This document shows positions 29,059 to 41,337 of a DNA stretch of 64,000 bases, piece after piece. The notes under the pieces are model-generated. The model searched no databases. It was not told where the DNA came from and saw nothing but the letters and a program-made list of their open reading frames with translations. This DNA comes from Escherichia phage vB_EcoD-Elw. Position 1 is the first letter of the stretch, and each line of letters begins with the position of its first letter. Both the position numbers and the translations under genes were made by a program. The DNA is taken from the sequence record OR621298; one strand, written 5' to 3'.

Positions 29059-29134
29059 TGGAGCGGCTAGAGGGAATCGAACCCTACTCAGCGAGGCTTG
29101 GAAGGCCTGCGACACAACCCGTGTGCTTAACCGC
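29059..29134 (-). tRNA. tRNA-Gly (TCC)
   Basis: Hand fold: anticodon loop CTTCCAA, T-loop TTCGATT, acceptor GCGGTTA/TAGCCGC, CCA encoded. Confidence 0.6.
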
Positions 29135-30088: not shown

Positions 30089-30107
30089 TTTTTTTTTTTT
30101 TTTTTTT
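30089..30107. repeat. 19-nt poly(T) homopolymer (poly(A) on the coding minus strand)
   Basis: 19 consecutive T read directly; lies inside a short minus-strand ORF that starts at 30143 behind RBS AAGGAA. Confidence 0.9.
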
Positions 30108-30163
30108 ACCGTCCTTCATTGTTACAGTAACTGTTTTGCTCATAATGATTCCTTATAGTTAAT

Positions 30164-30253
30164 TGGAGGAAGGTAATGGAGTCGAACCATCACCGTATCA
30201 CTACAGCGGGCTAGTTTTCAAGACTAGTTGCGTACCACTACGCCCTACCTTCC
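30164..30253 (-). tRNA. tRNA-Ser (TGA), class II
   Basis: 90 nt; acceptor GGAAGGT/ACCTTCC, anticodon arm CTAGT-CTTGAAA-ACTAG, long variable arm, CCA encoded. Confidence 0.6.
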
Positions 30254-30260
30254 ATTTGTT

Positions 30261-30351
30261 TGGCGGAAGAGGAGAGATTTGAACTCTCAAGCCGTTTTAC
30301 CAGTCAGCCACTTTCCAAGCGGTTTTCGTCGCCAATTCGATTTGCTCTTCC
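30261..30351 (-). tRNA. tRNA-Ser (GGA), class II
   Basis: 91 nt; acceptor GGAAGAG/CTCTTCC, T-arm GAGAG-TTCAAAT-CTCTC, long variable arm; anticodon assignment tentative. Confidence 0.45.
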
Positions 30352-30384
30352 AATAATAAGATGATGCCTCTATCACACCAGGCA

Positions 30385-30460
30385 GTTACGCCTCGCTGGG
30401 ATTCGAACCCATTAAAACAGCTCAACCGAGATAGTAGATTTAATTTACTCTGACCATCAA
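30385..30460 (-). other. tRNA-like element with canonical T-arm but no foldable acceptor stem
   Basis: GGGTTCGAATCCC T-arm motif present; no 7-bp acceptor pairing or CCA found by hand. Confidence 0.3.
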
Positions 30461-30463
30461 ATT

Positions 30464-30540
30464 TGGTGCGTGACAAGGGATTCGAACCCTCAAAACCCGA
30501 CTTCTAAGGACGGTATGTATGCCAATTCCATCAATCACGC
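30464..30540 (-). tRNA. tRNA with anticodon TAG (Leu-type anticodon) in a short 77-nt class-I-like body
   Basis: Acceptor GCGTGAT/GTCACGC (one G-U), T-arm GAGGG-TTCGAAT-CCCTT, anticodon loop CTTAGAA, discriminator A, CCA encoded. Confidence 0.45.
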
Positions 30541-30545
30541 GTATT

Positions 30546-30620
30546 TGGTGGACAAAGAGGGACTCGAACCCTCCCTACCAGATTGCAAATCTGGTGTGCT
30601 CCCGCTGACACTATTCGCCC
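30546..30620 (-). tRNA. tRNA-Ala (TGC)
   Basis: Anticodon arm CCAGA-TTTGCAA-TCTGG, T-arm GAGGG-TTCGAGT-CCCTC, acceptor with two G-U pairs, CCA encoded. Confidence 0.6.
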
Positions 30621-30997
30621 AAATTTATTAATCCAGCATGTACTTCTCTATGGCAGTTAGAGCATAATAGTACGCACTTTTTAAGTTCTGCTATTACTAC
30701 TTCTCTGTTTCTACGAGAAGTTCTAAACCTTGCAATGGAGTATTCCTTTTCTTCTGGATTAGTATGGTGGAAATCTAAGGCTTGTTTACACCTATTATAT
30801 CCACAAATACTACATTCTAATACAGGAAATACTTCTTTAATTAATTCTTCATGTCCAGCTACTCGTTCAGCTTTTTCACATGCTTTACATGTTGGCTTCC
30901 ACTTCTTTGTGCCATTAGGAGTAAATCCATTCGAATAAAAATATTCGGTTGTTAACGGATATTCATTCCCACAGGCTCTACATGTTTTTGTACACAC
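30611..30997 (-). CDS. HNH homing endonuclease
   Basis: 128-aa ORF; N-terminal Cys pairs and C-terminal HNH signature (DFHHTNP...CSNCH); 3' end overlaps tRNA-Ala by 10 nt. Confidence 0.7.
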   Translation of the reverse strand: MCTKTCRACGNEYPLTTEYFYSNGFTPNGTKKWKPTCKACEKAERVAGHEELIKEVFPVLECSICGYNRCKQALDFHHTNPEEKEYSIARFRTSRRNREVVIAELKKCVLLCSNCHREVHAGLINLGE

Positions 30998-31357
30998 TGC
31001 GTTAACCCCTGTAAGTTTACTAAGGCTATTAGCTCGGCGTAACTACAGCACCTTCGCTTCGAGCGGAAGGAACTGCGTCATCTCGCAAACCCGATACACT
31101 ATTCAGTTGCCGCTGAATCTAGTGGACTAATCTAGAACTTCTCCCGAATTGTAGGGATCGTGCTTTTTGGCAGCCAGTCCTAGGTCGAGCTAATACCTTA
31201 GTGAACTAAATTGATGGATACCAGACTAATTTTGCTACGACGTTTATCCTGAGGATCTCTTTTTCGGTAGCTCTGCTAGTGTAGACGTCATACACCTGGT
31301 ATCTAGGCAGCTATTTTCGCATCAATTTATATAAATATTATAACAAGAAATTAAGCA

Positions 31358-31720
31358 TTAAGCAAGTACATTTTTAGCGATTTCCTGTAGTTCCTTTACA
31401 TCACGAACGTAAAGGTAATCAGAGCTTCCAGAGTGCATACTTTGCATAACCACACCTTCATCTGGTGCATTATCCTTCAAGGTAATTCCTAGCCAGAACT
31501 CGGCAAAACTAGGTGTTATCTCACCTTGACTTGCCTTGAATACATCATATTCTGTAAGTTCTTGACCAGTAGATAATCCCAAATAGACAGAACTAAGATC
31601 AATCTCTTTATGAGACTCATAAAATTCCGATAGATCTTTTTCCATATCCCAGCCATGCTGCAATGCGAACTCCATTGTCACATGACCGAAATAACCTTGA
31701 ATCTTGTTTGATAATTGCAT
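31358..31720 (-). CDS. hypothetical protein
   Basis: Track ORF 31358..31726 starts at TTG; trimmed to ATG with RBS AAGGA. Confidence 0.45.
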   Translation of the reverse strand: MQLSNKIQGYFGHVTMEFALQHGWDMEKDLSEFYESHKEIDLSSVYLGLSTGQELTEYDVFKASQGEITPSFAEFWLGITLKDNAPDEGVVMQSMHSGSSDYLYVRDVKELQEIAKNVLA

Positions 31721-31745
31721 TTGCAATTCCTTATTTTGAGTTAAT

Positions 31746-31819
31746 TGGTACTCGGTGATAGAATCGAACTATCACAACCGCCGTGTAAAGACGGGGTTCT
31801 CCCATTAAACTAACCGAGC
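31746..31819 (-). tRNA. tRNA-Val (TAC)
   Basis: 74 nt; anticodon arm CCGTC-TTTACAC-GGCGG, T-arm GATAG-TTCGATT-CTATC, CCA encoded. Confidence 0.6.
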
Positions 31820-31823
31820 AATT

Positions 31824-31901
31824 TGGTAGATCGCCTGGGATTCGAACCCAGAACTGACGGATTAAAGGTCCGCTACTCTTATCCAGTTGAGCTAGCGATC
31901 T
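31824..31901 (-). tRNA. tRNA-Lys (TTT)
   Basis: Perfect acceptor AGATCGC/GCGATCT, T-arm CTGGG-TTCGAAT-CCCAG, anticodon loop CCTTTAA (C at position 33 is unusual). Confidence 0.5.
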
Positions 31902-31902
31902 A

Positions 31903-32070
31903 TTAGTAACCATTATATACCTCTTTAATAGAGTGAACTTTCAAGTAAGGGTGATTAGTATTAAACTCTGCCATTACTTCATCCCAATTTTTACCATAAT
32001 GTGCAAGTAAGGATCTTGAGGTATTATTACCTAAACGTTTGTCACTTACTACTAATCGAAATACTTTCAT
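31903..32070 (-). CDS. small protein (55 aa)
   Basis: Not in ORF track; ATG with RBS AGAGGA; translated by hand; fills the gap between tRNA genes. Confidence 0.35.
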   Translation of the reverse strand: MKVFRLVVSDKRLGNNTSRSLLAHYGKNWDEVMAEFNTNHPYLKVHSIKEVYNGY

Positions 32071-32090
32071 TTCGAAATCCTCTATTAAAG

Positions 32091-32167
32091 TGGAAGCGGG
32101 TGCAGGAATCGAACCTACCTCTTTCTAGCTTATGAGACTAGCGATCTCTACCAGAGATCTAACCCGC
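32091..32167 (-). tRNA. tRNA anticodon CAT (Met or Ile-lysidine)
   Basis: Anticodon arm CTAGT-CTCATAA-GCTAG at canonical position; acceptor and T-stem contain mismatches. Confidence 0.45.
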
Positions 32168-32174
32168 AATTGTT

Positions 32175-32252
32175 TGGTCTCCGTGGGAGGATTTGAACCC
32201 CCGACCCTATCGCCCCAAACGAAACGCTCTGGCCAAACTGAGCTACACGGAG
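32175..32252 (-). tRNA. tRNA-Pro (TGG)
   Basis: Acceptor CTCCGTG/CACGGAG, D-stem GCTC/GAGC, anticodon loop TTTGGGG, T-loop TTCAAAT, CCA encoded. Confidence 0.55.
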
Positions 32253-32256
32253 AATA

Positions 32257-32415
32257 TTATTTCTTCAACCACAACAAAGATAAGCCCAGCATACTAAAGC
32301 CGCTAACTAATCCGATACATTTTTCTTCTATAGTAAAAGTATCTAGATTAAATGCTGTTATAGCTATTGGCATACACCATAATGTCATAAAAACTTGAGC
32401 TATCTTGTGTTTCAT
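32257..32415 (-). CDS. small hydrophobic protein (52 aa)
   Basis: Not in ORF track; ATG with RBS GAGAAGGAAAG; sits immediately upstream of tRNA-Pro. Confidence 0.35.
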   Translation of the reverse strand: MKHKIAQVFMTLWCMPIAITAFNLDTFTIEEKCIGLVSGFSMLGLSLLWLKK

Positions 32416-32725
32416 TTTGCTTTCCTTCTCTTCACTTTATAAAATATATTATACAGATAATATAGCAGAATAGCAAATGAATTTTTAATAAATTTACTTA
32501 TTGTGTAGGCCACCTGGAGGCTACCAACCCCACGGCTGACAAAGAAGTTTGCGAGACCTCTCTTAAATGCCAGAATAGACCCGCCGATCTATCGGAACCT
32601 ACATAATAAGTAAACTTTCGTTTACTTACGCCCCGTTAGAGGGACTTTAGCGACTAGAACCGGCCGGAAACTTCATCGCCTTGTTTATTCAGAAGTCCGT
32701 TCTCTAGGGAGCAGAAATCTAAATT

Positions 32726-32800
32726 TGGTGGAGTTTGGGAGACTACGTGTTACTCCCTCTGTCCGAAGTAGGATAGTGCTTAACCGTTTAGCTGAACCCC
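32726..32800 (-). other. tRNA-like element (acceptor- and D-arm-like stems, CCA end, non-canonical T and anticodon arms)
   Basis: Plus-strand AAATTTGG junction as at true tRNA 3' ends; acceptor GGGGTTC/AAACTCC pairs 6 of 7; 5-bp GGGAG/CTCCC stem with 11-nt loop replaces the T-arm. Confidence 0.3.
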
Positions 32801-32979
32801 TTTAAATATTTATACGTTTTATCTAACAACTCTTGTTTAGAGATTATACCATCACGATATTCAGTAATAAAATTATCTATGTTGGAGTCCTTTGATACAA
32901 CGTTATCAGATAGCTCTGTGAATTTATTTGCTAAAAGATCTAATTCTTTGTAATTCACAAAACCTCCAGAATATGCCAT
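32788..32979 (-). CDS. hypothetical protein
   Basis: 63-aa ORF. Confidence 0.4.
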   Translation of the reverse strand: MAYSGGFVNYKELDLLANKFTELSDNVVSKDSNIDNFITEYRDGIISKQELLDKTYKYLKGFS

Positions 32980-33219
32980 TCTAGACAGGACTCGAACCTG
33001 CTATCACTTGTGCGGACTTACGAGAACCATTCTTTCACTCGAATCGAACGAGCTTCTGCCCTAGCCAAGCTGGTTTCCCCATCAACCACGCTAGAATGTT
33101 TGATTGTTTTCAGTGCAAGAGTCCGAGTCTTGGACACGACCGCTTCGCAAGTACATAGGCAGCTTATCATGAGTCAGCACTTCCGAATTGCTAGCTCCGT
33201 GTTCTGCACTGAGATTTTG

Positions 33220-33567
33220 TTAATTTAATAGTAAAGTACGATCTACTTCACCATTAATTGTTCGGCATTCCTCTGGAATTGCTGGTGTAGTCTTATATTC
33301 CCACCATTCAGAACCATCATATTCACCACGTTCTAACCAAGTTCCATCAGTAAACCATACGTTACCATAAAGCAATTGTCCACCGAAACCAGAATCATAT
33401 TTAAAGTCTAGATTATTTAGAAAATCTTCAATATCTTTTTCTGTATAACCTACGGGTAATACCCAAACTTCTTTGTCTCCATAATAACCGAATTCTATCT
33501 TAATACACTTAACTTCAGAATTAGTATTCTTTAGGGCAAGTAACAATTCTTCTTTAGCATTAATCAT
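33220..33567 (-). CDS. hypothetical protein
   Basis: 115-aa ORF. Confidence 0.45.
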   Translation of the reverse strand: MINAKEELLLALKNTNSEVKCIKIEFGYYGDKEVWVLPVGYTEKDIEDFLNNLDFKYDSGFGGQLLYGNVWFTDGTWLERGEYDGSEWWEYKTTPAIPEECRTINGEVDRTLLLN

Positions 33568-33593
33568 AGCATATTTCTCATACTAAATTAATT

Positions 33594-33669
33594 TGGTACA
33601 CCCACTAGGACTTGAACCTAGAACCCTCCGCTTAAGAGGCGGTAGCTCTAACCATTGAGCTATGGGTGT
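33594..33669 (-). tRNA. tRNA-Lys (CTT)
   Basis: 76 nt with canonical numbering: acceptor ACACCCA/TGGGTGT, D-stem GCTC/GAGC, anticodon loop CTCTTAA, T-arm CTAGG-TTCAAGT-CCTAG, CCA. Confidence 0.6.
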
Positions 33670-33675
33670 ATTAAA

Positions 33676-33828
33676 TTACTTTTCCAGTTCATCAGCTATG
33701 GCTTTGATTTTTTCAAAGTTTACATCACTAATAATGATACCTTCCAGTGACAGAGATATTCTAGCATTTTTCATAGCAGATTCTTTTATCTGCTCTATTT
33801 CTTCTGGAGTAAACTCCCTACGTTCCAT
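33676..33828 (-). CDS. small acidic protein (50 aa)
   Basis: Not in ORF track; ATG with RBS AAGGTAGG; between two tRNA genes. Confidence 0.3.
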   Translation of the reverse strand: MERREFTPEEIEQIKESAMKNARISLSLEGIIISDVNFEKIKAIADELEK

Positions 33829-33845
33829 AGCTAACCTACCTTATT

Positions 33846-33922
33846 TGGCGCGACCGATGGGATTTGAACCCACATTCCCTCCCGTGACAGGAGAGTACCA
33901 TTACCAAGCCAGCCCCGGTCGC
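33846..33922 (-). tRNA. tRNA-Asp (GTC)
   Basis: Acceptor GCGACCG/CGGTCGC, anticodon arm CTCTC-CTGTCAC-GGGAG, T-loop TTCAAAT, CCA encoded. Confidence 0.6.
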
Positions 33923-33931
33923 ATAATTCAT

Positions 33932-34117
33932 TTACTCAGCTTTGAGCTTTTCAATAGCTGCATTAAGTTCTTTAAGAAACTCTTTTCGTACATTAAGACG
34001 ATTGAGACTTACTAGTATATCGTGTTTAAGTTCTTCGATGTATTTCTTTTCAACTTCAATATTGTTGATAGTGCTATCACGATGAACTTCTAGCTGCGCA
34101 ATTACATTCTTGGACAT
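33932..34117 (-). CDS. hypothetical coiled-coil protein
   Basis: 61-aa ORF. Confidence 0.4.
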   Translation of the reverse strand: MSKNVIAQLEVHRDSTINNIEVEKKYIEELKHDILVSLNRLNVRKEFLKELNAAIEKLKAE

Positions 34118-34144
34118 GCTTGTTTCCTCAGTTATTAATGAAAA

Positions 34145-34215
34145 TGGTATCTGTGGCTGAATTCGATGTCAGCAATGATAGCTGGTTGGCTACCGGTTTA
34201 CTTAACTCTACACAG
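34145..34215 (-). other. tRNA-like element with 8-nt T-loop and imperfect acceptor
   Basis: 3' ...GATACCA end and GCTGA/TCAGC stem around a CATCGAAT loop; no standard anticodon arm found. Confidence 0.25.
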
Positions 34216-34219
34216 AATT

Positions 34220-34297
34220 TGGCGGTTCCTGCTGGATTCGAACCAGCAAACCTCAACTTAACAAGATGCCGCTCTAACCAATTAGAGCTAAGGAACC
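34220..34297 (-). tRNA. tRNA-Asn (GTT)
   Basis: Perfect acceptor GGTTCCT/AGGAACC, D-stem GCTC/GAGC, T-arm GCTGG-TTCGAAT-CCAGC, anticodon loop TTGTTAA on a weak 3-bp stem. Confidence 0.5.
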
Positions 34298-34792
34298 ATA
34301 TAAGTCAGAACTAGAGTTAATACGTTCTAGATATTTACTAAGATCCCTAGAATTTATACTAAACCACTCATGTTCTTTTAAATCTTTGAAATACTGGTGA
34401 ATTAGTTTTTCACCTTTTCGTTTGTCAAACCAAAACGACCAATGCTCTAATTTATAATCCCTATATGGGGAATAGGTCTGATATTGAGCTAATCTCTCTT
34501 TTGGATTTTGACTCATACCTATTTTATACTGATTTTTCCATGCAGGATTACTAATACAGTATACAAAACCTTCAGAAATAGGAAGTTTATTTTCCTGCTT
34601 AAACTTTATAAAGGAAAGTGCGGCAAGTTTTCTCGAATACATAGTATTCGTATTCTTTTTGGTATTACCATTAGTTCCTGAAAGATTTATATATTCTTCC
34701 ATAAATCTTTGGATTAGTTCTGCGGTTATACAGAAAGGCCCATTAGTAACAACGCCTTTCTTTACCAAACTATCAAAAACTTTTGTATGCAC
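34274..34792 (-). CDS. T5orf172-type GIY-YIG-like domain protein (putative homing endonuclease)
   Basis: 172-aa ORF (GTG start in track); GFVYCISNPAWKNQYKIGMSQNPKERL resembles the GIY-YIG-like T5orf172 domain; 3' end overlaps tRNA-Asn. Confidence 0.6.
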   Translation of the reverse strand: MHTKVFDSLVKKGVVTNGPFCITAELIQRFMEEYINLSGTNGNTKKNTNTMYSRKLAALSFIKFKQENKLPISEGFVYCISNPAWKNQYKIGMSQNPKERLAQYQTYSPYRDYKLEHWSFWFDKRKGEKLIHQYFKDLKEHEWFSINSRDLSKYLERINSSSDLYGSLALIG

Positions 34793-40465: not shown

Positions 40466-40540
40466 TGGCCGAGGTGACAGGATTCGAACCTGCATAAAGG
40501 AATTTAGAAGACTCCTGCCTCTCCATTAGACTACACCCCG
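40466..40540 (-). tRNA. tRNA-Arg (TCT)
   Basis: Anticodon arm GGAGT-CTTCTAA-ATTCC, T-arm GCAGG-TTCGAAT-CCTGT, acceptor CGGGGTG/CACCTCG, CCA. Confidence 0.6.
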
Positions 40541-41337
40541 TTTAAGTATTTTTAAGAACTCTCGTAAAAACTCTTAAAAATACAGACGATACCGGGAGAG
40601 TCATAAGTCTCACTCATTAAGTATTTCAAGACAAAATACAGTAACGTCTATTATTTTCCAGTTTAAGTCAAGGTGACTTAGTGGTTATGTCCTGCGGTAT
40701 ACTGAGGACTCGGTTAGGATTGGGGTCATGACTTCCCGCCTTTTGCTGCTACTCAACAGGAGTTATCGCGAATTACCTGTGCTATTGTGCACCATTAGTG
40801 ACATCTCTCATGTCAGCATTTCCCACTTTGTGGATAGCTTGAAAAACTACTCCGATATGGAGAAAGAACTTCACTATCCTAGAATACCTTCTAAAGTTCT
40901 TCTTTAGCCTGGACATAGTTAAATCGTAATAAAACTATTCAGCAGACTAGTTGGTTAGTCTGGAACCAACTACCGCGTGGTTTAGGCAGTGCGCAACTAA
41001 CCTCGGAAGCTTTTACGTTAAAAGCATCAGTTATCCAGTTCTTACCGACCGTAGGATTCGAACCTACATCTTCCACCAGTTACGGCTTGATAATACCAAT
41101 TATACTAGGACGGCAGTGTTACTACATAAGTGATTTCCACACCCCACTATTTATAAATTAGGGAAGAGTTTAGGGGAGAGGTTTCAGACGCCTCATTTTA
41201 TACGTTCTAGCCACTAACCGGGATTGCCGCCCCCTGTGTACTAGTTTTACAACTAACCCACCGACTCTATTCAATGCGCTCCGGTTGGGATTCTGCACTC
41301 AGCGTAATCGGCTCGCTGTTCCCTAATTTATGAATAT

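What the first reader, a model, noticed from the sequence alone, without database searches (positions are those of the whole stretch)
30385..34215. tRNA-like elements that do not fold as canonical tRNAs
30385-30460 has a perfect GGGTTCGAATCCC T-arm but no acceptor stem. 32726-32800 has acceptor- and D-like stems and a CCA end but a non-canonical T-arm. 34145-34215 ends in GATACCA with an 8-nt T-loop. All sit in tRNA-like spacing with the same junction motif. They could be decaying pseudogenes or stable regulatory/processing RNAs; reports of stable non-tRNA RNAs in T5 are a memory I could not verify here.
Basis: inference. Interest (0 to 1): 0.5.

Follow-up and report, generated by a model that had tools for sequence, protein, structure and literature searches.

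The report
Conserved tRNA-mimic RNAs in T5-like phage
The three odd "tRNA-like" stretches are real, selectively maintained small-RNA genes in the tRNA cluster of a T5-like phage: one is the already annotated T5 "RNA3", and another belongs to an undescribed RNA family found in at least four phage groups that always carries the marks alanyl-tRNA synthetase uses to recognise tRNA-Ala but has no usable anticodon.

Summary
The window is a T5-like (Tequintavirus) tRNA region with genes on the minus strand. All three elements exist as described, and neither ARAGORN nor Rfam calls any of them.

- **C (34145-34217)** is 100% identical to T5 rna3, which GenBank annotates as "RNA3, tRNA-like RNA, unknown function". 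This part is already known. Relatives show compensatory changes in three helices.
- **B (32726-32800)** is unannotated. A covariance model scores B-family members at 56-110 bits and ordinary tRNAs at 28.6 bits or less. I collected 19 distinct copies from Demerecviridae, N4-like Schitoviridae, Erwinia phage Faunus and a jumbo Erwinia phage. The cloverleaf covaries (14 of 25 pairs). G1-C72, G2-C71, G3·U70, A73 and CCA are invariant, and so is the 11-nt T loop apart from one A-to-G change in one copy. The anticodon arm varies in length and loop. I infer a non-decoding, probably alanine-accepting tRNA mimic.
- **A (really about 30362-30459)** is unannotated. Its paired ends enclose a variable arm, a canonical T arm and a closed acceptor-like hairpin. 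This is the domain order of YrlA Y RNAs, but without a D arm. It sits between tRNA-Leu and tRNA-Ser in three phage lineages. T5 has the hegC homing endonuclease gene in its place.

These are not decaying pseudogenes. Function is inferred, not shown.

The parts
30362..30459 (-). Element A, whole conserved unit (about 98 nt). The order is paired termini, variable (V) region, T arm, closed acceptor-like hairpin, 9-nt joiner. It is flanked by tRNA-Leu(UAG), which ends at 30464, and tRNA-Ser(GGA), which starts at 30351.
   Evidence: Alignment with Pectobacterium phage DU_PP_V and Klebsiella Sugarlandvirus copies in the same tRNA-Leu/tRNA-Ser slot. RNAalifold consensus and pair counts give 99.6% of cells paired, against 31-44% when partners are slid.
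30452..30459 (-). A: 5' strand of the terminal stem (UGAUG-G-UC). It pairs with 30362-30368 (GGCAUCA).
   Evidence: 7 pairs present in all 11 sequences. 6 never vary and 1 shows a one-sided U-A to U-G change, so the stem is uninformative for covariation. The bulged position varies between G, U and A.
30397..30411 (-). A: canonical T arm, UGGG-UUCGAAU-CCCA.
   Evidence: Two compensatory pairs: UGGG/CCCA in T5-likes, CGGG/CCCG in Pectobacterium, CAGG/CCUG in Klebsiella.
30377..30396 (-). A: closed acceptor-like hairpin, GCGAGGCG-UAAC-UGCCUGGU. It abuts the T stem directly. The 4 T-stem layers plus 8 hairpin layers make 12 stacked layers.
   Evidence: Two compensatory pairs (A-U to G-C; G·U to U-A) plus several wobble intermediates.
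32726..32800 (-). Element B: a 75-nt cloverleaf-like RNA, GGGGUUC...AAACUCC-A-CCA. It has G3·U70, a D loop (window AAACGGUUA; family consensus AAUCGGUUA), a short anticodon-position hairpin with a 6-nt loop, and T arm GGGAG-UAACACGUAGU-CUCCC. Its first 13 nt overlap the end of a 63-aa ORF (32788-32979).
Evidence: Covariance model R1 scores it 60 bits, E about 6e-14, while tRNAs score 28.6 bits or less.
34145..34217 (-). Element C = T5 RNA3 (73 nt). It starts 2 nt after tRNA-Asn(GUU) and ends 25 nt before the ribosome-binding site of the DUF7337 ORF (33932-34117).
   Evidence: 100% identity to rna3 of AY543070, annotated 'putative tRNA-like RNA'. It is also annotated in AJ604531 and NC_027356. 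There are compensatory changes in the acceptor stem, the anticodon-position stem and the T stem.
31024..31195 (-). Homolog of T5 RNA2H ('stable RNA with unknown functions').
   Evidence: 97% identity over 172 nt.
32502..32604 (-). Homolog of T5 RNAIV (stable RNA). It lies downstream of B in the same transcription direction.
   Evidence: 98% identity over 103 nt. The best sigma-70-like promoter (32476 to 32448, equivalent to T5 P13a) lies just downstream of it.
32974..33098 (-). Homolog of T5 RNA2 ('tRNA-like stable RNA with unknown functions').
   Evidence: 96% identity over 125 nt.

Best explanation
A, B and C are three unrelated small-RNA genes kept under selection. They lie among the phage's tRNA genes, on the same strand and with no terminator-like site between them. 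I infer that they are transcribed with the tRNAs and cut out by the host tRNA-processing enzymes. None can decode. Each presents only part of a tRNA's surface, so each most likely works by engaging a host factor that recognises that part.

(1) C is T5 RNA3, a 73-nt cloverleaf with a U1·U72 mismatch, A73-CCA, a reduced D arm and an 8-nt T loop.

(2) B belongs to a previously undescribed phage RNA family. It has a complete alanine identity set (G1-C72, G2-C71, G3·U70, A73, encoded CCA), an almost invariant D loop and an almost invariant 11-nt T loop. The anticodon arm is replaced by a hairpin of variable length. I infer that host AlaRS charges it with alanine and that it then acts off the decoding pathway, either as a decoy or sponge for a tRNA-binding factor or as an alanine donor.

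(3) A is a tRNA mimic with closed ends. A genuine T arm stacks on an acceptor-like helix that is capped by a loop. The RNA's own termini pair where the anticodon stem would be. It therefore offers a tRNA elbow and minihelix with no chargeable end.

All three are accessory, because each is missing from some viable relatives.

Shown here: existence, conservation, structure, distribution, and the identity of C.
Inferred: processing, stability of A and B, alanylation of B, and any downstream role.

The confidence of 0.7 is for the core claim that these are functional, structurally constrained, non-decoding tRNA-mimic RNA genes. For alanylation of B alone I would say about 0.55.
For: Identity and context:
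- The window is a T5-like tRNA region.
- C equals rna3 at 100% identity, and specialists annotated it as a tRNA-like RNA.

Conservation:
- A is 95-100% identical in 20 of 24 viral loci. C is 94-100% identical, and all but one locus hold the whole element. This includes a locus whose adjacent ORF is only 56% identical.
- In the phage collection A is in 251 records, C in 354 and B in about 100.

Structure:
- B family, first set of 15 sequences: 97.3% of cells paired, 14 of 25 pairs with two-sided changes, 0 of 500 shuffles as good, and 32-50% paired in slid controls.
- B acceptor stems, all 19 distinct sequences: 19/19 have G1-C72, G2-C71, G3·U70, A73 and CCA. Base pairs 4-7 take 2-4 different pair types each, across 8 different acceptor stems.
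- The B T stem covaries (GGGAG/CUCCC, GUGGG/CCCAC, GGAGG/CCUCC, UCGGG/CCCGA) around a loop that is identical in 18 of 19 copies.
- C has 4 compensatory pairs in 3 helices. A has 4 compensatory pairs in its T arm and adjacent hairpin.

B is an independent gene. It stands alone, with no tRNA genes nearby, in the N4-like phages MY01 and K60PH164C1, in Erwinia phage Faunus and in the jumbo phage Hallingskeid.

Established knowledge (not tested here): E. coli AlaRS recognises G3·U70 with A73 in the acceptor helix and charges minihelices and tmRNA that lack an anticodon.

A's domain order (V, T, closed acceptor) matches that described for YrlA Y RNAs (PMC4201824).

The minus strand has no terminator-like site in 30100-34500. 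The one strong promoter-like site lies downstream of B and RNAIV. This fits co-transcription with the tRNAs.
Against: - I have no expression or stability data for A or B. The AY543070 record itself calls RNA3 only 'putative'.
- Alanylation of B is inferred from sequence alone. The unusual T loop or D arm could block AlaRS, RNase P or the CCA end.
- G3·U70 is not unique to alanine-type RNAs in this window. The phage tRNA-Arg(UCU) also has it, with G73.
- The window's copy of B is the least perfect of the family. It has a C7·A66 mismatch (or a 1-nt deletion), an A·C mismatch in the anticodon-position stem, and the shortest arm. It could be on its way out in this lineage.
- T5 itself lacks both A and B, and SB9 lacks A and C. 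None of the three is essential.
- The covariation in A and C rests on few independent lineages. The structures tested were derived from these same sequences, and the B alignment was fitted to the model.
- A's terminal stem is nearly invariant, so it has no covariation support.
Confidence: 0.7

Rival explanations
1. They are decaying tRNA pseudogenes, meaning dead copies of tRNA genes drifting in the cluster with no function.
For: None is recognised by ARAGORN or Rfam. Each is dispensable in some relatives. The window's B carries two mismatches that its closest relative NBSal003 partly lacks, and OSYSP and phage 5 carry a T-stem mismatch. One relative (L015) retains only the 3' half of C.
Against: Identity is near 100% across phages whose flanking ORFs have diverged. 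Compensatory changes maintain the helices. The non-canonical features themselves are the most conserved parts: B's 11-nt T loop, B's G3·U70 and C's 8-nt T loop. B occurs as a lone gene in four unrelated phage groups. None of the three resembles any tRNA of the window.
Confidence: 0.06
2. They act only in cis, as structured spacers. They would give RNase P, RNase E and exonucleases handholds to cut the long tRNA/ORF precursors, or protect neighbouring mRNAs, and the excised RNA would have no role of its own.
For: All sit at tRNA-type junctions within polycistronic early transcription units. C lies 25 nt upstream of an ORF's ribosome-binding site. B overlaps the end of an ORF. tRNA-like punctuation is a known processing principle (established knowledge, for example in mitochondria).
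Against: Punctuation needs only an RNase P-competent shape. It does not explain an invariant G3·U70/A73/CCA, a nearly invariant 11-nt T loop, or a nearly invariant D loop across phage families. In N4-like phages, Faunus and Hallingskeid, B is not between genes that would need separating. It sits just after or just before a terminator hairpin. SB9 expresses the same ORF downstream of tRNA-Asn without C.
Confidence: 0.15
3. They matter at the DNA level. They would be target sites, scars or recombination modules for the homing endonucleases and module shuffling typical of this region, and not RNAs.
For: A's slot is occupied by the HNH gene hegC in T5 and by an unrelated 173-aa ORF in SB9. B has moved relative to its position in SB9 and Klebsiella phages, together with a 63-aa ORF. 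Modules are bounded by the repeated CCAAAT(T) junction. An extra HNH gene sits at 30611-30997.
Against: DNA targets do not need RNA-type compensatory substitutions or G·U-tolerant pairing on one strand. B occurs in phages with no tRNA cluster nearby.
Confidence: 0.05
4. B is a genuine, unusual decoding tRNA-Ala, and C is likewise a decoding tRNA of unknown identity. The detection programs simply miss them, as they miss the functional T5 tRNA-Gly(UCC) in this window.
For: ARAGORN and Rfam both miss tRNA-Gly(UCC) at 29059-29134, which is 100% identical to a T5 tRNA annotated as becoming an effective suppressor after anticodon replacement. So non-detection alone is weak evidence. B has a full acceptor, D and T framework.
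Against: The anticodon-position loop of B is 4, 6 or 7 nt depending on lineage. It has no conserved triplet and mostly no U33, and its stem ranges from 6 to about 12 bp. C's loop is 6 or 8 nt, and it tolerates an insertion and a mutation of the closing pair. The phage already has a normal tRNA-Ala(UGC).
Confidence: 0.03

Closest known systems
T5 'RNA3' (gene rna3; GenBank AY543070, AJ604531, NC_027356), together with the other T5 stable or tRNA-like RNAs (RNA1, RNA2, RNAI, RNAIII, RNAIV, RNA2H, RNAX)
   Same: Element C is RNA3: 100% identical over 73 nt, in the same position immediately 3' of tRNA-Asn. A and B share its lifestyle. They are non-decoding structured RNAs embedded in the same tRNA transcription units.
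   Different: A and B are not annotated in those records. T5 lacks both, and the phage 5 record leaves both intervals blank. They share no sequence with any of the eight annotated RNAs.
tRNA-Ala acceptor minihelices and the tRNA-like domain of tmRNA (AlaRS substrates without an anticodon)
   Same: B has G1-C72, G2-C71, G3·U70, A73 and CCA, and its 3' end ...CUCCACCA matches that of E. coli tRNA-Ala and tmRNA (the comparison sequences are from memory). It lacks a decoding anticodon. The acceptor plus T stack is 12 bp.
   Different: B has no mRNA-like module, no pseudoknots and no tag reading frame. Neither ARAGORN nor Rfam sees a tmRNA. Unlike tmRNA, B keeps a D stem and a closed anticodon-position hairpin. 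Its T loop is 11 nt (UAACACGUAGU), not the canonical 7.
YrlA-type bacterial and phage Y RNAs (Chen et al. 2014, PMC4201824)
   Same: A has the same circularly permuted tRNA-like order: paired 5'/3' termini, a variable-arm region, a T arm with a canonical T loop, then an acceptor-like stem closed by a loop.
   Different: A has a 9-nt single strand where YrlA has its conserved D arm. No GNCGAA Ro60-binding motif is evident. No Rfam Y-RNA family matches. No Ro60/TROVE gene is nearby; the neighbours are tRNAs, and six nearby ORFs show no TROVE domain.
Non-proteinogenic tRNA-Gly of staphylococci (amino-acid donors for cell-wall synthesis with altered T arms; from established knowledge, not tested here)
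   Same: The concept matches: a chargeable tRNA-shaped RNA whose altered T arm or anticodon takes it out of translation.
   Different: Those are still bona fide tRNAs with anticodons and are host-encoded. No alanyl-transferase partner is known or was found for B.
Phage tRNAs that counter tRNA-targeting defences (for example the T5 tRNA-Lys variant against PARIS, PMC11464382; Schlafen tRNases that act on T5, PMC13056530)
   Same: They share the genomic niche (T5-like tRNA cluster), patchy accessory distribution and high conservation where present. tRNA-shaped decoys would be a natural extension.
   Different: Those are functional decoding tRNAs that replace cleaved host tRNAs. A, B and C cannot decode. 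No link to any defence system has been tested.

Membership tests
Canonical tRNA (Rfam RF00005 / ARAGORN) | Detected above the RF00005 gathering score (29 bits) or called by ARAGORN | tested here: not met
   There is no call at any of the three loci. Nothing appears even at E<=10.
Canonical tRNA (Rfam RF00005 / ARAGORN) | 5-bp anticodon stem with a 7-nt loop (U33, anticodon, purine 37) | tested here: not met
   A has no such arm. B has a 6-nt loop in the window and loops of 4-7 nt on stems of 6 to about 12 bp in relatives, with no conserved triplet. C has a 6- or 8-nt loop.
Canonical tRNA (Rfam RF00005 / ARAGORN) | 5-bp T stem with the 7-nt T loop UUCRANY | tested here: inconclusive
   A has the UUCGAAU loop on a 4-bp stem. 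B has an 11-nt loop, UAACACGUAGU. C has an 8-nt loop, CAUCGAAU.
Canonical tRNA (Rfam RF00005 / ARAGORN) | 7-bp acceptor stem, discriminator, 3' CCA | tested here: inconclusive
   B pairs at 6 of 7 positions in the window and 7 of 7 in most relatives, followed by A73-CCA. C pairs at 6 of 7 with U1·U72, followed by A73-CCA. A has no free acceptor end.
T5 RNA3 (rna3 of AY543070) | Sequence identity, and position directly 3' of tRNA-Asn(GUU) and upstream of the T5.068 homolog | tested here: met
   73 of 73 nt are identical and the neighbours are the same.
T5 RNA3 (rna3 of AY543070) | Accumulates as a stable RNA in infected cells | not testable with these tools
   It is annotated 'putative tRNA-like RNA' in AY543070 and 'tRNA-like RNA with unknown functions' in AJ604531. 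The primary papers are not in the searchable library.
AlaRS substrates (tRNA-Ala identity set, E. coli rules) | G3·U70 wobble pair in the acceptor helix | tested here: met
   19 of 19 distinct family members have it, including the window, while base pairs 4-7 covary.
AlaRS substrates (tRNA-Ala identity set, E. coli rules) | A73 discriminator, with G1-C72 and G2-C71 | tested here: met
   19 of 19.
AlaRS substrates (tRNA-Ala identity set, E. coli rules) | Mature, free 3'-CCA end and a 5' end generated at G1 | not testable with these tools
   CCA is genome-encoded in all members. Processing has not been observed.
AlaRS substrates (tRNA-Ala identity set, E. coli rules) | Demonstrated charging with alanine | not testable with these tools
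   This needs an in vitro AlaRS assay or in vivo charging analysis.
tmRNA | Recognised by tmRNA models, with a tag-peptide reading frame and pseudoknots between the halves of the tRNA-like domain | tested here: not met
   ARAGORN finds no tmRNA. Rfam RF00023 gives only a 15-nt, 10.9-bit hit to A's T arm and nothing on B members. B is a closed RNA of 75-89 nt.
YrlA-type Y RNA (considered for A) | Paired termini enclosing V, T, closed acceptor and D stem-loops in that order, with tRNA-like conserved nucleotides | tested here: inconclusive
   The V region, T arm and closed acceptor-like hairpin are in the right order and partly covary. The D stem-loop is absent, replaced by a 9-nt joiner.
YrlA-type Y RNA (considered for A) | Matches an Rfam Y-RNA model, and is encoded next to a Ro60/Rsr (TROVE) gene | tested here: not met
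   There is no Rfam match at E<=10. The neighbours are tRNA-Leu and tRNA-Ser, and six ORFs within the span have no TROVE domain.

The most novel reading that the evidence does not exclude
Element B represents an undescribed class of phage-encoded RNA: a non-decoding tRNA mimic that host AlaRS charges with alanine. It has spread horizontally among at least four groups of Enterobacterales phages (T5-like, N4-like, Faunus-like, jumbo). Its nearly invariant 11-nt T loop and D loop would then direct it to a specific host target. That target could be a decoy or inhibitor role against a tRNA-directed immune nuclease or tRNA-tail-modifying toxin, or a role as an alanine donor in a non-ribosomal reaction. 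In the same reading, A is a closed-end, Y-RNA-like tRNA-elbow decoy. The T5-type 'tRNA cluster' would then be partly an arsenal of tRNA-shaped effectors and not only a codon-supply locus.
Probability: 0.3. Interest if true: 0.85.

Novelty: new variant of a known kind. Interest (0 to 1): 0.6.

Why it matters
Phage tRNA clusters have recently moved from being seen as codon-usage helpers to being seen as counter-defence loci (PARIS, retron/PtuAB, Septu, Schlafen, Cas12a3). The non-tRNA RNAs in the T5 cluster have sat in GenBank as "unknown function" for about 20 years.

This analysis adds three things:
1. One of the odd elements is that old RNA3, and it is under structural selection.
2. A second element belongs to a cross-family phage RNA family whose only invariant acceptor features are exactly the alanine identity set. 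That gives a sharp, cheap hypothesis: AlaRS charging that is abolished by changing G3·U70 to G3-C70.
3. A third element has the closed-acceptor topology otherwise known from Ro60-associated Y RNAs.

If B is charged but cannot decode, it would be the first phage example of an aminoacylated tRNA mimic outside tmRNA. It would also be a candidate decoy for tRNA-directed immunity.

On the practical side, B is currently overlaid by spurious 'hypothetical protein' or 'RIIB' CDS calls in many phage records.

Tried and rejected
1. ARAGORN and Rfam, at both the gathering and E<=10 thresholds, were run on the window and on four diverse B members. Nothing informative came back.

2. Exact-pattern scans for B's T arm in viral and metagenome collections gave only 2 and 3 loci. 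A looser D-loop/T-loop pattern on genome contigs returned about 120 hits that are almost all archaeal 16S rRNA, which shares the 13-mer GUAACACGUAGUC. I discarded them as irrelevant.

3. Literature searches for the original T5 stable-RNA papers, and for any description of the B motif, found nothing usable. The 'stable RNA' status therefore rests on GenBank annotation.

4. I looked for a host homolog of B in 5,426 E. coli genomes and found none.

5. Global alignment of A, B and C to every tRNA of the window, to find a parent tRNA, gave only low scores and no parent.

6. I considered B as a two-piece or mini tmRNA and rejected it, because it has no coding module and the arm is closed.

7. I considered an extended D-loop/T-loop kissing interaction in B (CGGUUA with UAAC-A-CG). 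It is not supported. The D-loop U-to-G change in My1 and Hallingskeid is not compensated.

8. I considered whether the ORF that replaces A in SB9 is a homing endonuclease. PHROGs gives only 'unknown function', so I claim the link between A's slot and a homing endonuclease gene for T5 hegC only.

9. MAFFT misplaced the 5' ends of B variants that have 1-nt length differences. I therefore used a covariance-model alignment plus an ungapped manual acceptor analysis.

Full report
**What the window is.** ARAGORN finds 24 tRNA genes and Rfam finds 26, all on the minus strand between about 27.9 and 41.1 kb. The 4.3-kb span of the finding matches more than 500 T5-like phage genomes (Tequintavirus, Epseptimavirus and relatives), including T5 itself. 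Everything below is read on the minus strand.

**The observation.** All three descriptions hold.

- A contains UGGGUUCGAAUCCCA at 30397-30411, with no complementary 5' strand for the sequence that follows it.
- B (32726-32800) folds on its own into a cloverleaf-like shape. It has an acceptor stem, a 3-bp D stem, a short hairpin at the anticodon position, a 5-bp T stem with an 11-nt loop, and ACCA at the 3' end.
- C (34145-34217) folds with an acceptor stem, a 6-bp stem at the anticodon position and a T stem with an 8-nt loop. It ends in ...AUACCA. Its folding z-score is -3.2, with 0 of 200 shuffles folding as well.
- None is called by ARAGORN or by any Rfam model, even at E<=10.
- The shared "junction motif" is the CCA + AAU/AUU that follows most tRNAs here. 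It belongs to the upstream tRNA for A and C and to B itself for B. A has no CCA.

**Element C is T5 RNA3.** The T5 record AY543070 annotates eight non-tRNA RNAs in the tRNA region. These are RNAIII, RNAI, RNA1, RNA2H, RNAIV, RNA2, RNA3 and RNAX, described as "stable RNA" or "tRNA-like stable RNA with unknown functions".

- rna3 ("putative tRNA-like RNA") lies 2 nt after tRNA-Asn and is 100% identical to window 34145-34217.
- The same label appears in the phage 5 and DT57C records.
- C is present in 354 phage records at 90% identity or more.
- In 24 viral loci it stays 94-100% identical. All but one locus hold the whole element, even where the adjacent ORF has dropped to 56% amino-acid identity.
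- In an 11-sequence alignment that includes Epseptimavirus copies and "Campylobacter phage C13", four pairs change on both sides: one in the acceptor stem, two in the anticodon-position stem and one in the T stem. No shuffle reaches the observed counts. Paired cells are 94%, against 29-43% for slid partners.
- The loop at the anticodon position tolerates an insertion and loss of its closing pair, so it is not a decoding loop.
- C has a U1·U72 mismatch, as do the phage's tRNA-fMet and tRNA-Gln(UUG). I cannot assign it an amino-acid identity.
- C is a discrete module. SB9 goes straight from tRNA-Asn to the next ORF's ribosome-binding site, and one relative keeps only C's 3' half.

**Element B belongs to an undescribed family.**

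- T5 lacks B. The specialist annotation of phage 5, which has B, leaves the interval blank.
- Homologs lie directly after tRNA-Lys in Salmonella phage SB9 and Klebsiella Sugarlandviruses, and after tRNA-Gly in Pectobacterium phage My1.
- B also occurs as an isolated gene, with no tRNAs nearby, in four other phages. These are the N4-like Schitoviridae MY01 and K60PH164C1, Erwinia phage Faunus, and the 366-kb Erwinia phage Hallingskeid.
- A covariance model built from eight copies scores family members at 56-110 bits and every ordinary tRNA at 28.6 bits or less.
- On the first 15 distinct sequences, 97.3% of cells pair and 14 of 25 pairs show two-sided changes. No shuffle matches this, and slid controls give 32-50% paired. 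The caveat is that the alignment was fitted to the model.
- An ungapped check of the acceptor stems in all 19 distinct sequences gives G1-C72, G2-C71, G3·U70, A73 and CCA in 19 of 19. Base pairs 4-7 take 2-4 different pair types each, across eight different stems.
- The T stem covaries (GGGAG/CUCCC, GUGGG/CCCAC, GGAGG/CCUCC, UCGGG/CCCGA) around the loop UAACACGUAGU, which shows a single A-to-G change in one phage. The D loop AAUCGGUUA is almost as constant, with an AAACGGUUA variant in the window's subgroup.
- The arm at the anticodon position ranges from 6 to about 12 bp, with loops of 4-7 nt and no conserved triplet.
- A wobble pair that never becomes G-C or A-U while its neighbours covary is being selected as a wobble pair. 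Together with A73 and the first two G-C pairs, it is the E. coli alanine identity set. AlaRS reads this set in the acceptor helix alone, since minihelices and tmRNA are charged (established knowledge).
- I therefore infer that B is an alanine-accepting tRNA mimic that cannot decode.

Caveats on B:
- Charging is untested.
- The phage's tRNA-Arg also carries G3·U70, with G73.
- The window's subgroup has a C7·A66 mismatch or 1-nt deletion and the shortest arm, and the window copy adds an A·C mismatch.
- B has no Rfam match in four diverse members and no homolog in E. coli genomes.

**Element A is longer than, and different from, what was described.**

- Copies in Pectobacterium phage DU_PP_V and Klebsiella Sugarlandviruses occupy the same slot, between tRNA-Leu(UAG) and tRNA-Ser.
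- Aligned with those copies, the conserved unit runs from about 30459 to 30362.
- RNAalifold gives a terminal stem (UGAUG-N-UC with GGCAUCA), a variable region of about 40 nt, the T arm, an immediately adjacent hairpin (GCGAGGCG-UAAC-UGCCUGGU), and a 9-nt joiner.
- The T stem and the adjacent hairpin each have two compensatory pairs. 99.6% of cells pair, against 31-44% for slid controls. The terminal stem is nearly invariant and so uninformative.
- The hairpin begins exactly where an acceptor 3' strand would begin. With the 4-bp T stem it makes a 12-layer stack capped by a loop, which is a tRNA minihelix with no free end.
- The order of paired termini, V, T and closed acceptor is the order described for YrlA Y RNAs. 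A differs in lacking the D arm, matching no Rfam model and having no Ro60 gene nearby. I record this as a resemblance in architecture, not as membership.
- In T5 the slot is filled by the HNH gene hegC. In SB9 it is filled by an ORF of unknown function. A is therefore dispensable.
- A is in 251 phage records.

**Transcription context.**

- There is no terminator-like site on the minus strand in 30100-34500.
- The one strong sigma-70-like site (32476 to 32448, matching T5 promoter P13a) lies downstream of B and RNAIV.
- All three elements therefore sit inside tRNA/ORF transcription units. Release by the tRNA-processing machinery is the natural inference, but it has not been shown.

**Interpretation.**

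- The pseudogene reading fails on conservation and covariation.
- A purely cis, "punctuation" role cannot explain B's nearly invariant identity nucleotides and loops, or its stand-alone occurrence.
- A DNA-level role does not predict strand-specific pair conservation that tolerates G·U.
- Patchy presence with near-identity where present, and relocation as modules, is the pattern of accessory, horizontally exchanged phage genes. In this locus several such genes are now known to counter tRNA-directed immunity (PMC11464382; context in PMC13056530). That is a lead and not a result.

**Verdict.** C is already known and of unknown function. A and B are unannotated. B defines a new variant of tRNA mimic with a directly testable alanylation hypothesis.

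Noticed in passing
window 29059-29134 (-): This stretch is 100% identical to T5 tRNA-Gly(UCC) (tRNAG1), which the T5 record says becomes an effective suppressor after anticodon replacement. Neither ARAGORN nor Rfam calls it at the gathering threshold. So some functional T5 tRNAs escape standard detectors.
   Followed up: partly
window 30258-30351 (-): This is the counterpart of T5 tRNA-Ser(GGA) (tRNAS2), immediately 3' of element A. ARAGORN misses it, and it scores only 19.7 bits, against the tRNA-Sec model, in Rfam. The two T5 records disagree: one calls it a tRNA and the other a pseudogene.
   Followed up: partly
window 32605-32725 (-): A conserved non-coding module of about 120 nt lies between B and RNAIV. 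In Epseptimaviruses the same module follows tRNA-Gly(GCC). It is absent from T5 and is unannotated in the records inspected. It matches in about 270 phage records at 85-99% identity.
   Followed up: partly
window 33100-33210 (-): A conserved GC-richer element of about 110 nt (UCAGUGCAG...CUGAAAAC) lies just upstream of RNA2. It is also present in SB9 and falls in an unannotated 120-nt gap of the T5 record. It may be another structured RNA.
   Followed up: no
window 30611-30997 (-): A 128-aa HNH endonuclease ORF (phrog_2255, E=1.5e-32) is inserted between tRNA-Ala and RNA2H and overlaps the first bases of tRNA-Ala. T5 has no gene at this position.
   Followed up: partly
window 41043-41114 (-): Rfam calls a tRNA here (35.5 bits), but ARAGORN does not. 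The hit lies inside the homolog of T5 'RNAX' (window 40541-41170), so RNAX appears to contain a tRNA-like segment.
   Followed up: no
window 40466-40540 (-): The phage tRNA-Arg(UCU) has a G3·U70 pair, with C1-G72 and G73. This raises the question of whether AlaRS mischarges it.
   Followed up: no
L015:4945-4978 (IMG/VR T5-like contig): Only the 3' half of RNA3 (T arm plus acceptor 3' strand) is present here, joined to what looks like coding sequence. A recombination breakpoint falls inside the element.
   Followed up: no
L062:595-672 (OY978778), L031:1464-1607, L061:6007-6150, L196-L198: Public annotations overlay B with protein calls. One is a pseudo 'RIIB lysis inhibitor' CDS, and in Klebsiella phages there are antisense 'hypothetical protein' ORFs. 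These are probably annotation artefacts.
   Followed up: no
B T loop; loci L072-L151: The 13-mer GUAACACGUAGUC of B's T arm is identical to a conserved segment of archaeal 16S rRNA (...CUCAGUAACACGUAGUCAAC...). It swamps pattern searches of genome collections. The match is probably coincidental.
   Followed up: partly
window 32788-32979 (-): A 63-aa ORF with no Pfam or PHROG match travels together with B in this lineage (window, NBSal003, OSYSP, phage 5). Its stop codon lies inside B's acceptor 5' strand. T5 and SB9 lack it.
   Followed up: partly
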